From assembly GCF_009914755.1 (NCBI RefSeq), contig NC_060931.1: a stretch of DNA of 64,000 nucleotides; one strand, written 5' to 3'. This DNA comes from the human T2T-CHM13v2.0 reference genome, Homo sapiens. The number at the start of each line of letters is the position of its first letter. The first letter of the stretch is position 1. Below are positions 21,920 to 28,450 of the stretch, in pieces. The translations under genes were made by a program, and so were the position numbers. The notes beneath the pieces were generated by a model. The model ran no database searches. It saw only the letters and a list, made by a program, of their open reading frames with translations, and had not been told where the DNA came from.

Positions 21920-21934
21920 GGAAGGTCAGATTCT
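21920..21934. repeat. Left target-site duplication of the L1-plus-transduction insertion (GGAAGGTCAGATTCT)
   Basis: Identical 15-mer at 28436-28450; directly followed by a poly(T) run. Confidence 0.92.
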
Positions 21935-22412
21935 TTTTTTTTTTTTTCTTGTGCTTAGTGCCAAATTTTATTTTTCTTTGGAAGACTGACATTAAACGTG
22001 AGAAAAACAAAGGATAACAAAAATTATCTTTATTTTCAAAATAACTTTACTAAACTATACTGATTACAAATAATACAGTCTAATGAAAACAAAGCCACTT
22101 AAAAAAGTTTAAAGAAGACATGTATGTGTAATTTTCTCATATAATTAACACTTTAAATTATTTTACAGAGTGTCATTTTAGAAATGGGTTGATACTATTT
22201 TGAATTATAGAATTAAAGTATGATCAGCATCTAATACAAAAACATACAATTAGATATTTTCTATTTTTCTGCTTTTAACTATTATTTAAGAATTTAATCT
22301 TTTTAGATTAGCCATCAGGGAAAATATATAGAATCACGGTATTCATTTATTATGTATATGAGGAAATTAACACCTTTATAATAACTCTCATGCTTTTTTC
22401 CTGAAAATTTTC
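21935..22412 (-). mobile_element. L1 3'-transduced segment (~465 bp) with its own AATAAA and second poly(A) tail
   Basis: Poly(T) 21935-21947, TTTATT 21967-21972, non-L1 AT-rich sequence up to the L1 poly(T) at 22413-22424; all inside the TSD pair. Confidence 0.88.
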
Positions 22413-22628
22413 TTTTTTTTTTTTAATTATACTTTAAGTTTTAGGGTACATGTGCACATTGTGCAGGTTAGTTACATACGTATACATGTGCCATGCTGGT
22501 GCACTGCACCCACTAACTCGTCATCTAGCATTAGGTATATCTCCCAATGCTATACCTCCCCCCTCCCCCCACCCCACAACAGTCTCCAGTGTGATATTCC
22601 CCTTCCTGTGTCCATCTGTTCTCATTGT

Positions 22629-25600
22629 TCAATTCCCACCTATGAGTGAGAATATGCGGTGTTTGGTTTTTTGTTCTTGCAATAGTTTACTGAGAATGAT
22701 GTTTTCCAATTTCATCCATGTCCCTACAAAGGACATGAACTCATCATTTTTTATGGCTGCATAGTATTCCATGGTGTATATGTGCCACATTTTCTTAATC
22801 CAGTCTATCATTGTTGGACATTTGGGTTGGTTCCAAGTCTTTGCTATTGTGAATAATGCCGCAATAAACATACATGTGCATGTGTCTTTATAGCAGCATG
22901 ATTTATAGTCCTTTGGGTATATACCCAGTAATGGGATGGCTGGGTCAAATGGTATTTCCAGTTCTAGATCCCTGAGGAATCGCCACACTGACTTCCACAA
23001 TGGTTGAACTAGTTTACAGTCCCACCAACAGTGTAAAAGTGTTCCTATTTCTCCACATCCTCTCCAGCACCTGTTGTTTCCTGACTTTTTCATGATTGCC
23101 ATTCTAACTGGTGTGAGATGGTATCTCATTGTGGTTTTGATTTGCATTTCTCTGATGGCCAGTGATGATGAGCATTTTTTCATGTGTTTTTTGGCTGCAT
23201 AAATGTCTTCTTTTGAGAAGTGTCTGTTCATGTCCTTCGCCCACTTTTTGATGGGGTTGTTTGTTTTTTTCTTGTAAATTTGTTTGAGTTCATTGTAGAT
23301 TCTGGATATTAGCCCTTTGTCAGATGAGTAGGTTGCGAAAATTTTCTCCCATGTTGTAGGTTGCCTGTTCACTCTGATGGTAGTTTCTTTTGCTATGCAG
23401 AAGCTCTTTAATTTAATTAGATCCCATTTGTCAATTTTGTCTTTTGTTGCCATTGCTTTTGGTGTTTTAGACATGAAGTCCTAGCCCATGCCTATGTCCT
23501 GAATGGTAATGCCTAGGTTTTCTTCTAGGGTTTTTATGGTTTTAGGTCTAACGTTTAAGTCTTTAATCCATCTTGAATTGATTTTTGTATAAGGTGTAAG
23601 GAAGGGATCCAGTTTCAGCTTTCTACATATGGCTAGCCAGTTTTCCCAGCAACATTTATTAAATAGGGAATCCTTTCCCCATTGCTTGTTTTTCTCAGGT
23701 TTGTCAAAGATCAGATAGTTGTAGATATGCGGCGTTATTTCTGAGGGCTCTGTTCTGTTCCATTGATCTATATCTCTGTTTTGGTACCAGTACCATGCTG
23801 TTTTGGTTACTGTAGCCTTGTAGTATAGTTTGAAGTCAGGTAGCGTGATGCCTCCAGCTTTGTTCTTTTGGCTTAGGATTGCCTTGGCGATGCGGGCTCT
23901 TTTTTGGTTCCATATGAACTTTAAAGTAGTTTTTTCCAATTCTGTGAAGAAAGTCATTGGTAGCTTGATGGGGATGGCATTGAATCTGTAAATTACCTTG
24001 GGCAGTATGGCCATTTTCACGATATTGATTCTTCCTACCCATGAGCATGGAATGTTCTTCCATTTGTTTGTATCCTCTTTTATTTCCTTGAGCAGTGGTT
24101 TGTAGTTCTCCTTGAAGAGGTCCTTCACATCCCTTGTAAGTTGGATTCCTAGGTATTTTATTCTCTTTGAAGCAATTGTGAATGGGAGTTCACTCATGAT
24201 TTGGCTCTCTGTTTGTCTGTTGTTTGGTGTATAAGAATGCTTGTGATTTTTATACATTGATTTTGTATCCTGATACTTTGCTGAAGTTGCTTATCAGCTT
24301 AAGGAGATTTTGGGCTGAGACAACGGGGTTTTCTAGATATACAATCATGTCGTCTGCAAACAGGGACAATTTGACTTCCTCTTTTCCTAATTGAATACCC
24401 TGTATTTCCTTCTCCTGCCTAATTGCCCTGGCCAGAACTTCCAACACTATGTTGAATAGGAGTGGTGAGAGAGGGCATCCCTGTCTTGTGCCAGTTTTCA
24501 AAGGGAATGCTTCCAGTTTTTGCCCATTCAGTATGATATTGGCTGTGGGTTTGTCATAGATAGCTCTTATTATTTTGAAATACGTCCTATCAATACCTAA
24601 TTTATTGAGAGTTTTTAGCATGAAGGGTTGTTGAATTTTGTCAAAGGCTTTTTCTGCATCTATTGAGATAATCATGTGGTTTTTGTCTTTGGCTCTGTTT
24701 ATATGCTGGATTACATTTATTGATTTGCGTATATTGAACCAGCCTTGCATCCCAGGGATGAAGCCCACTTGATCATGGTGGATAAGCTTTTTGATGTGCT
24801 GCTGGATTCGGTCTGCCAGTATTTTATTGAGGATTTTTGCATCAATGTTCATCAAGGATATTGGTCTAAAATCCTCTTTTTTTGTTGTGTCTCTGCCTGG
24901 CTTTGGTATCAGAATGATGTTGGCCTCATAAAATGAGTTAGGGACGATTCCCTCTTTTTCTATTGATTGGAATAGTTTCAGAAGGAATGGTACCAGTTCC
25001 TCCTTGTACCTCTGGTAGAATTCAGCTGTGAATCCATCTGGTCCTGGACTCTTTTTGGTTGGTAAGCTATTGATTATTGCCACAATTTCAGATCCTGTTA
25101 TTGGTCTATTCAGAGATTCAACTTCTTCCTGGTTTAGTCTTGGGAGAGTGTATGTGTCGAGGAATTTATCCATTTCTTCTAGATTTTCTAGTTTATTTGC
25201 GTAGAGGTGTTTGTACTATTCTCTGATCGTAGTTTGTATTTCTGTGGGATCGGTGGTGATATCCCCTTTATCATTTTTTATTGCGTCTATTAGATTCTTC
25301 TCTTTTTTTCTTTATTAGTCTTGCTAGCGGTCTATCAGTTTTGTTGATCCTTTCAAAAAACCAGCTCCTGGATTCATTAATTTTTTGAAGGGTTTTTTGT
25401 GTCTCTATTTCCTTCAGTTCTGCTCTGATCTTAGTTATTTCTTGCCTTCTGCTAGCTTTTGAATGTGTTTGCTCTTGCTTTTCTAGTTCTTTTAATTGTG
25501 ATGTTAGGGTGTCAATTTTGGATCTTTCCTGCTTTCTCTTGTGGACATTTAGTGCTATAAATTTCCCTCTACACACTGCTTTGAATGCGTCCCAGAGATT

Positions 25601-27535: not shown

Positions 27536-28434
27536 CTTTGTGGTTTTATCTACTTTTGGTCTTTGATGATGGTGATGTACAGATGGGTTTTTGGTGTGGA
27601 TGTCCTTTCTGTTTATTAGTTTTCCTTCTAACAGACAGGACCCTCAGCTGCAGGTCTGTTGGAATACCCTGCCGTGTGAGGTGTCAGTGTGCCCCTGCTG
27701 GGGGGTGCCTCCCAGTTAGACTGCTCGGGGGTCAGGGGTCAGGGACCCACTTGAGGAGGCAGTCTGCCCGTTCTCAGATCTCCAGCTGCGTGCTGGGAGA
27801 ACCACTGCTCTCTTCAAAGCTGTCAGACAGGGACATTTAAGTCTGCAGAGGTTACTGCTGTCTTTTTGTTTGTGCCCTGCCCCCAGAGGTGGAGCCTACA
27901 GAGGCAGGCAGGCCTCCTTGACCTGTGGTGGGCTCCACCCAGTTCGAGCTTCCCAGCTGCTTTGTTTACCTAATCAAGCCTGGGCAATGGCGGGCGCCCC
28001 TCCCCCAGCCTCGCTGCCGCCTTGCAGTTTGATCTCAGACTGCTGTGCTAGCAATCAGCGAGATTCCGTGGGCGTAGGACCCTCCGAGCCAGGTGCGGGA
28101 TATAGTCTCCTGGTGCGCCGTTTTTTAAGCCCGTCGGAAAAGCGCAGTATTCGGGTGGGAGTGACCCGATTTTCCAGGTGCCGTCCGTCACCCCTTTCTT
28201 TGACTCGGAAAGGGAACTCCCTGACCCCTTGCGCTTCCCAAGTGAGGCAATGCCTCGCCCTGCTTCGGCTCGCGCACGGTGCGTGCACCCACTGACCTGC
28301 GCCCACTGTCTGGCGCTCCCTAGTGAGATGAACCCGGTACCTCAGATGGAAATGCAGAAATCACCGTCTTCTGCGTCGCTCACGCTGGGAGCTGTAGACC
28401 GGAGCTGTTCCTATTCGGCCATCTTGGCTCCTCC
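27536..28434 (-). promoter_or_regulatory. L1 5' UTR: internal sense promoter, antisense promoter, YY1 site, CpG-rich
   Basis: Intact YY1 motif (GCCATCTTGG, 28418-28427); many retained CpGs ~27980-28420. Confidence 0.8.
27987..28295 (+). CDS. L1 antisense ORF0-like frame, 102 aa (MAGAPPPASLPPCSLISDCC...)
   Basis: ATG in strong context GCAATGG; N-terminus matches primate L1 ORF0; open to TGA at 28293-28295; expression not shown. Confidence 0.6.
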   Translation: MAGAPPPASLPPCSLISDCCASNQRDSVGVGPSEPGAGYSLLVRRFLSPSEKRSIRVGVTRFSRCRPSPLSLTRKGNSLTPCASQVRQCLALLRLAHGACTH

Positions 28435-28435
28435 A

Positions 28436-28450
28436 GGAAGGTCAGATTCT
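28436..28450. repeat. Right target-site duplication (GGAAGGTCAGATTCT), followed by AA
   Basis: Identical to 21920-21934; TTCT/AA resembles the L1 endonuclease TTTT/AA nick site. Confidence 0.92.

What the first reader, a model, noticed from the sequence alone, without database searches (positions are those of the whole stretch)
21920..28450. Full-length L1 carrying a ~465-bp 3' transduction, revealed by a displaced target-site duplication
Seen: no TSD abuts the L1's own poly(T) at 22413. The 15-mer just beyond the L1 5' end (GGAAGGTCAGATTCT, 28436-28450, followed by AA, an endonuclease-type TTCT/AA site) recurs exactly at 21920-21934 and is followed by a second poly(T) run to 21947. An AATAAA on the - strand (21972-21967) lies 19 nt upstream of that tail. 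Established: L1 read-through of its weak poly(A) signal mobilises 3' flanking DNA. Inference: the insertion is ~6.5 kb (21935-28435), and 21948-22412 is DNA copied from the progenitor L1's locus. Repeat-masking would probably call it unique local sequence. It acts as a lineage barcode for the source element.
Basis: partly seen in the sequence, partly recalled or inferred. Interest (0 to 1): 0.85.

Follow-up and report, generated by a model that had tools for sequence, protein, structure and literature searches.

The report
L1 carrying chr13 DNA by 3' transduction
A full-length but broken L1 retrotransposon between GARS1 and CRHR2 brought 465 bases of chromosome 13 DNA with it when it inserted, a well-known behaviour of L1, and the chromosome 13 site it came from no longer holds an L1 in this genome.

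Summary
The 15-mer GGAAGGTCAGATTCT occurs exactly twice in the window. One copy abuts the L1 5' end (28436-28450). The other abuts a second 13-T run (21920-21934). The L1 lies on the minus strand (22413-28435). It has ORF1p, endonuclease and reverse-transcriptase domains, but its reading frames are broken.

The 465 bases between the L1's own 12-A tract and the second tail (21948-22412) have one other match in the genome: chr13:56280752-56281216. The match has 11 mismatches in 465 bases and no indels. On chr13 the segment is continuous with its flanks and has no A tail. It ends 19 nt after the same AATAAA, ahead of a T/GT-rich stretch. So chr7 holds an RNA-mediated copy of chr13 DNA, inserted together with the L1 in one event.

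CHM13 has no L1 within about 10 kb of the chr13 site. The junction there is an endonuclease-type site, TTCT/AT. The progenitor was most likely an allele that was later lost.

This is an ordinary example of a known process, so interest is low.

The parts
28436..28450 (-). 5' target-site duplication (upstream of the L1 in its own orientation). The two bases beyond it (28451-28452, AA on +) complete the TTCT/AA nick site.
   Evidence: Exact 15-mer, one of 2 copies in the window. It abuts the L1 5' end. The sense-strand hexamer is TTAGAA.
22425..28435 (-). Full-length L1 body (6011 bp): 5'UTR, ORF1, ORF2, 3'UTR. Both reading frames are broken. The terminal sense-strand T at 28435 is not shared by most other copies.
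   Evidence: Pfam finds Transposase_22, Tnp_22_dsRBD, Tnp_22_trimer, Exo_endo_phos and RVT_1 on the minus strand. ORF2 is in four ATG-started pieces of 394, 307, 258 and 281 aa, and ORF1 runs only 248 aa from an ATG. The 5'UTR is 96-98% identical to 39 other scored copies, and 32 of those 39 matches start at query base 2 (40 of 4561 candidates were scored).
22413..22424 (-). Internal A tract (12 A on the sense strand). Inferred to be a copy of the progenitor's genomic poly(A). The L1's terminal hexamer here reads ATTAAA (22427-22422).
21948..22412 (-). 465-bp transduced segment copied from chr13:56280752-56281216. It begins GAAAATTTTC, taken to be the progenitor's 3' TSD, and ends CACAAG.
   Evidence: The only other genome match. 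11 mismatches in 465, 6 transitions and 5 transversions, no indels. 24% G+C.
21967..21972 (-). The AATAAA polyadenylation signal that was used, 19 nt upstream of the terminal tail. The same hexamer is present at the chr13 source.
   Evidence: window 21972-21967; L002 position 1941. The downstream T/GT-rich stretch at chr13 is shown.
21935..21947 (-). Terminal poly(A) tail (13 A on the sense strand). It is absent from chr13.
21920..21934 (-). 3' target-site duplication.
   Evidence: Exact 15-mer. The longest shared word by a wide margin, 15 against 8.

Best explanation
This is a single L1 retrotransposition event that carried a 3' transduction.

Inferred history:
1. A full-length L1 once sat on chr13, in plus orientation, immediately upstream of what is now CHM13 chr13:56280752.
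2. Its transcript read through the element's own weak terminal signal.
3. The transcript passed further hexamers in the flank. It was cleaved and polyadenylated 19 nt after an AATAAA that is followed by a T/GT-rich downstream element.
4. The L1 machinery nicked chr7 at TTCT/AA and primed on the new tail. It copied the 465-nt flank, then the progenitor's genomic A tract, then the whole 6-kb L1.
5. Second-strand cleavage 15 bp away produced the 15-bp target-site duplication.

Shown by tool results: the structure on chr7, the chr13 origin of the 465 bp, its RNA-type 3' end, and the absence of an L1 at chr13 in CHM13.

Inferred only: that an L1 once occupied the chr13 site and was lost while still polymorphic, and the date. 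The date is about 10-12 Myr, with a range of 5-22 Myr, at recalled rates of 1-1.2e-9 per site per year.

The element is now dead, since its ORFs are broken. The 465 bp serves only as a lineage marker.
For: 1. One TSD encloses the L1 plus the 465 bp plus both A runs. No alternative repeat of 9 bases or more flanks the L1 alone.
2. The 465 bp has exactly one other genome match, on chr13. It is collinear over all 465 bases at 97.6% with no indels.
3. The chr13 copy has no A tail and continues into unrelated sequence on both sides. The chr7 copy ends in 13 A, 19 nt after AATAAA, and chr13 has a T/GT-rich stretch just past that point.
4. The orientation is as required: the chr13 segment is in the L1's sense direction, downstream of its internal A tract.
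5. The chr7 target is TTCT/AA.
6. The chr13 junction, allowing for one ambiguous A, is CAT/AGAAAA. This is TTCT/AT on the nicked strand, a pyrimidine run followed by a purine. Only 7.4% of 19847 nearby positions qualify with the same one-base leeway. TTCT/AT and the YYYY/RR rule appear among documented sites in PMC4859970 (passages).
7. The same review describes the expected anatomy: two homopolymer runs, with the source's 3' TSD inside the transduced part.
8. About 10% of L1 insertions are reported to carry transduced sequence (PMC2768975, passage).
Against: No L1 lies at or within about 10 kb of the chr13 source in CHM13. BLASTN of the whole 6501-bp insertion against 23 kb of chr13 returned only the 465-bp match. 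The parent element itself is therefore unobserved, and the progenitor's 5' TSD cannot be checked.

The endonuclease-site argument at chr13 is modest, roughly a one-in-fourteen chance. The region is AT-rich.

No sibling insertion with the same flank exists in this genome, so there is no transduction family to corroborate the source.

No other primate or human assembly could be examined.
Confidence: 0.88

Rival explanations
1. Template-switch or RNA-ligation chimera. The L1 reverse transcriptase first copied the 3' end of an independent polyadenylated chr13 transcript, then jumped to the poly(A) tail of a full-length L1 RNA. Alternatively the two RNAs were joined before reverse transcription. 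On this reading no L1 ever sat on chr13.
For: The chr13 site has no L1 within about 10 kb, which is what this model predicts. The chr7 structure alone cannot separate the two models. L1 chimeras with other RNAs exist (10.1101/2025.02.02.635956, passages read).
Against: In the passages read, the described chimera classes place the foreign RNA 5' of an L1 3' end, consistent with cis preference, and the L1 part is usually truncated. Here the foreign part is 3' of a full-length L1, which is the reverse order. The chr13 junction falls on an endonuclease-type site found at only 7.4% of background positions; a random switch point has no reason to land there. Only one base of A microhomology is available at the junction. 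No evidence of an independent chr13 transcript was sought or seen.
Confidence: 0.07
2. Two separate events. A 465-bp retrocopy of a chr13 transcript inserted first, and an L1 landed next to it later (or the reverse). The 15-mer repeat belongs to only one of the two events or is a coincidence.
For: Both parts end in their own A run.
Against: The exact 15-bp repeat brackets the composite. One copy sits at the L1 5' end and the other after the second tail. Nothing of 9 bases or more repeats around either part alone: the next longest shared word is 8. Two independent events would have to abut to the base and leave no TSDs of their own.
Confidence: 0.02
3. DNA-level duplication or filler DNA. The 465 bp was moved from chr13 to chr7 by a non-RNA process such as segmental duplication or repair synthesis.
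For: Two near-identical copies lie on different chromosomes.
Against: The chr7 copy carries a 13-A tail that chr13 lacks, placed 19 nt after AATAAA. The copy sits inside a TSD at an endonuclease-type target. Both boundaries are sharp to the base.
Confidence: 0.01

Closest known systems
L1 3' transduction. Moran 1999, Goodier 2000, Pickeral 2000 and Szak 2003 are recalled and were seen only in reference lists. The description was read in PMC4859970.
   Same: Full-length L1, internal A tract, unique non-L1 segment, downstream AATAAA, second tail, a single TSD around everything, an endonuclease-type target, and a unique source locus elsewhere in the genome.
   Different: The source locus has no L1 in this assembly. 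The transduction marks a progenitor that is not observed, and it has no sibling copies.
Transductions traced to non-reference or absent source elements. Solyom 2012, on a pathogenic orphan transduction from a non-reference L1, was seen in a reference list and in a table row of PMC4859970.
   Same: The flank sequence identifies a source site where the reference holds no L1.
   Different: Those cases are recent and the source is polymorphic in living people. In true 'orphan' cases the L1 part is truncated away. Here the L1 is full length and the event is millions of years old, so the source is more likely extinct than polymorphic.
L1 chimeric insertions (U6/L1, Alu/L1, mRNA/L1) formed by RNA ligation or template switching (10.1101/2025.02.02.635956, passages).
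   Same: Two unrelated RNAs' sequences lie in the same orientation inside one TSD.
   Different: In those chimeras the foreign part is 5' of a usually truncated L1 3' end. Here it is 3' of a full-length L1 and follows an A tract.

Membership tests
L1 3' transduction | An L1 whose 3' end and A tract are followed by non-L1 sequence that ends in a second A tail | tested here: met
   L1 domains on the minus strand. 12-A internal run, 465 bp, 13-A terminal run.
L1 3' transduction | One target-site duplication encloses the L1 plus the extra segment, and none encloses the L1 alone | tested here: met
   Exact 15-mer at 21920-21934 and 28436-28450. The next longest shared word is 8, and 0 of 500 shuffles reach 15.
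L1 3' transduction | A polyadenylation signal 10-30 nt upstream of the second tail | tested here: met
   AATAAA at 21972-21967, 19 nt before the tail. The same hexamer is at chr13, followed by a T/GT-rich stretch.
L1 3' transduction | The extra segment matches a locus elsewhere, collinear, in the L1's sense orientation, without the tail | tested here: met
   chr13:56280752-56281216 is the only other match. 454 of 465 bases identical, no indels, no A tail.
L1 3' transduction | Insertion at an L1 endonuclease-type site (YYYY/RR) | tested here: met
   TTCT/AA at chr7. The rule was read in PMC4859970.
L1 3' transduction | Corroborating rather than defining: a progenitor L1 directly upstream of the segment at the source locus | tested here: not met
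   No L1 similarity in about 23 kb around the chr13 site in CHM13. The junction is nevertheless an endonuclease-type site, TTCT/AT, found at 7.4% of background positions. Other assemblies and species were not available.
L1 3' transduction | The orthologous pre-insertion site in an outgroup holds one 15-mer and lacks both the L1 and the extra segment | not testable with these tools
   No primate genomes are held. The genome search holds only the window's own assembly and prokaryotes.
L1 chimeric insertion (template switch or RNA ligation) | The foreign RNA copy is joined 5' of an L1 3' end | tested here: not met
   The foreign segment lies 3' of a full-length L1 and its A tract. The class description comes from passages of 10.1101/2025.02.02.635956.
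   No repeat library is available. Indirect evidence only: the 5'UTR is 96-98% identical to 39 other scored copies. The flank divergence of 2.4% suggests about 10-12 Myr, range 5-22 Myr. The 3'UTR reads GAG where human-specific L1 has ACA; that diagnostic is recalled, not tested.

The most novel reading that the evidence does not exclude
No L1 ever sat on chr13, and the insertion is a reverse-order chimera. The L1 enzyme primed on an unrelated polyadenylated chr13 transcript, copied 465 nt of it, then switched onto the tail of a full-length L1 RNA and copied all 6 kb. That would be a class of L1 chimera with the foreign RNA at the 3' side, starting on a non-L1 template against cis preference. 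Such insertions would routinely be scored as transductions with a missing source.
Probability: 0.06. Interest if true: 0.5.

Novelty: new member of a known kind. Interest (0 to 1): 0.2.

Why it matters
The practical value is small. The 465 bp is a paralogous copy of chr13 DNA that repeat masking leaves unmasked. Read mapping and homology searches should therefore treat 21948-22412 as a two-copy sequence.

The segment also records an L1 source site on chr13 that is empty today. This is one concrete case of a progenitor that produced a fixed offspring but did not itself survive in this genome. Counting such cases genome-wide would show how much L1 amplification came from short-lived, unfixed source elements. 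This single case does not change what is known about L1.

Tried and rejected
- The three papers that catalogued transductions in the reference genome are not held: Szak 2003, Pickeral 2000 and Goodier 2000. I cannot say whether this element is already listed there.
- A full-text search for CRHR2 together with 'antisense promoter' and 'LINE-1' found 0 papers. The searches turned up no paper that names this locus. A 7p14.3 L1PA2 in a table of PMC2768975 lies about 2 Mb away by its coordinates and is a different element.
- Splicing as the origin of the L1/chr13 junction was rejected. The chr13 sequence reads CATAG/AAAA, which could look like an acceptor, but the chr7 copy keeps the G after the A tract.
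- Copying in the direction chr7 to chr13 was rejected because chr13 lacks the tail and any TSD.
- I built no L1 consensus and did not assign a subfamily.
- The age estimate rests on 11 substitutions and on recalled rates, so it is rough.
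Full report
**The observation**

An L1 lies on the minus strand. Its 3' end, read on the plus strand, is a run of 12 T at 22413-22424 followed by the reverse complement of the L1 3'UTR. Its 5' end is at 28435.

The 15 bases just beyond the 5' end, GGAAGGTCAGATTCT (28436-28450), recur exactly at 21920-21934. They occur nowhere else in the window, even allowing two mismatches. 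The second copy is followed at once by 13 T (21935-21947). TTTATT at 21967-21972 reads AATAAA on the L1's strand and lies 19 nt from that tail.

I compared the 100 bases beyond the L1 5' end with the 2 kb beyond its 3' end. The 15-mer is the longest shared word and the next longest is 8. None of 500 shuffles reached 15; the largest was 14, once. So no target-site duplication abuts the L1's own A tract, and one does enclose the larger 6501-bp unit.

On the L1 sense strand the target reads TT/AGAA. This is TTCT/AA on the nicked strand and fits the YYYY/RR rule for the L1 endonuclease (PMC4859970, passages read).

**The L1**

Pfam finds the three ORF1p domains, the endonuclease and the reverse transcriptase on the minus strand, in the expected order. 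The element is not intact. ORF2 is split into ATG-started pieces of 394, 307, 258 and 281 aa. The longest ATG-started ORF1 frame is 248 aa.

The 906-base 5' end is 96-98% identical to 39 other L1 copies in the genome. Only 40 of 4561 candidates were scored, so these are not necessarily the closest relatives. In 32 of those 39 matches the alignment starts at query base 2, so the terminal T at 28435 is not a shared L1 base.

I could not assign a subfamily because no repeat library is available. The 3'UTR reads GAG at a position where, from memory, human-specific L1 has ACA. That points to an element older than L1HS, but it is recall and not a test.

**Where the 465 bp came from**

A search of the whole assembly with 21948-22412 gave two places: the window itself and chr13:56280752-56281216 on the opposite strand. 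Both of the 2 first-look candidates were scored.

The alignment covers all 465 bases with 11 mismatches (97.63%), 6 transitions and 5 transversions, and no indels. Both ends of the match are sharp.

- Upstream end: chr13 reads ...AAGTTTCATA then GAAAATTTTC. Chr7 has the L1 3' end and 12 A before the same GAAAATTTTC.
- Downstream end: chr13 reads CACAAG then ATAACTTTTCTTGCTGTTTTTGTCC. Chr7 has CACAAG, then 13 A, then the 15-mer.

Chr13 carries the same AATAAA 19 nt before the break, with a T/GT-rich stretch just after it. This is the usual layout of a cleavage and polyadenylation site; that reading rests on established knowledge, and the sequence is.

Three other signal-like hexamers lie earlier in the chr13 segment, at L002 positions 1615, 1862 and 1879, and were passed over.

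The chr7 copy is therefore a reverse-transcribed copy of a polyadenylated RNA from chr13. It lies in the L1's sense orientation, downstream of the L1's A tract, and inside the same target-site duplication. This is the anatomy given for a 3' transduction in PMC4859970: two homopolymer runs, with the source's 3' TSD forming the start of the transduced part.

**The source site today**

I fetched about 10 kb on each side of the chr13 match and ran BLASTN with the whole 6501-bp insertion against it. Only the 465-bp match came back. CHM13 therefore has no L1 at or near the source.

Allowing for one A that could belong either to the A tract or to chr13, the junction on chr13 is CAT/AGAAAA. This is TTCT/AT on the nicked strand, a pyrimidine run followed by a purine. 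With the same one-base leeway, 7.4% of 19847 nearby positions qualify. TTCT/AT appears among documented insertion sites in a table of PMC4859970. This is modest support for the view that an L1 once integrated exactly there.

**Mechanism and rivals**

The best reading is a read-through transcript of a chr13 L1 that inserted into chr7 by target-primed reverse transcription. The chr13 parent was later lost, most simply because it never reached fixation.

A rough population-genetic argument of my own (inference, not computed here) suggests this is unremarkable. A sizeable minority of offspring should come from source alleles that are later lost.

- Main rival, a chimera made by template switching or RNA ligation. 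It also predicts an empty chr13 site. However, the chimera classes described in the passages I read put the foreign RNA 5' of a usually truncated L1 3' end (10.1101/2025.02.02.635956). That is the opposite of what is seen here. This model also gives no reason for the junction to fall on an endonuclease-type site. I give it about 7%.
- Two independent insertions. Excluded for practical purposes by the single enclosing TSD and the lack of any inner repeat.
- A DNA-level duplication. It does not explain the untemplated tail.

**Age**

Eleven differences in 465 bases give 2.4% divergence (Poisson 95% range 1.2-4.2%). At recalled rates of 1-1.2e-9 per site per year on two lineages, this is about 10-12 Myr, with a range of 5-22 Myr. 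A slower rate of 0.5e-9 would double these figures.

**Standing of the finding**

3' transduction has been known since the 1990s and is reported for about 10% of L1 insertions (PMC2768975, passage). This is a clean and complete instance with its source site identified.

My searches found no paper naming this locus. The three early catalogues of reference-genome transductions are not held, so prior listing cannot be excluded.

I score interest at 0.2.

Noticed in passing
window 27920-28442 and 39900-39922: Exon 1 of the predicted lncRNA LOC124901609 (27920-28440, plus strand) starts about 516 nt inside the L1 5'UTR on the antisense strand, in the region of the L1 antisense promoter (recalled as roughly nt 400-600). 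It runs out through the L1 5' end. Its splice donor AAG|GT (28440/28441) lies inside the 5' target-site duplication. The acceptor at 39922 follows a pyrimidine tract and AG. The transcript then overlaps the 3' end of CRHR2 in antisense. It looks like an L1-antisense-promoter chimeric transcript. A literature search for CRHR2 with the L1 antisense promoter found 0 papers.
   Followed up: partly
window 27411-28106: The RefSeq 'enhancer' feature in the hub's table lies wholly inside the L1, covering the 5'UTR and the start of ORF1. It overlaps the lncRNA start site, so the annotated regulatory activity is probably that of the L1 promoter region.
   Followed up: no
window 22346-22351 versus L002 about 1566: One of the 11 differences gives the chr7 copy an extra AATAAA that chr13 lacks. 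Another removes an ATTAAA that chr13 has (L002 1862). Without an outgroup it is unknown which copy changed.
   Followed up: partly
window 22422-22427: The L1's own terminal signal reads ATTAAA, running into the A tract. From memory the usual form is AATAAA formed with the tail. If the progenitor shared this variant it may have favoured read-through. I did not compare it with other copies.
   Followed up: no
window 28435: The first base of the L1 (T on its sense strand) is not shared by most other copies: 32 of 39 scored 5'UTR matches begin at the second base. It is not part of the target-site duplication either. It may be an untemplated addition or a later substitution.
   Followed up: partly
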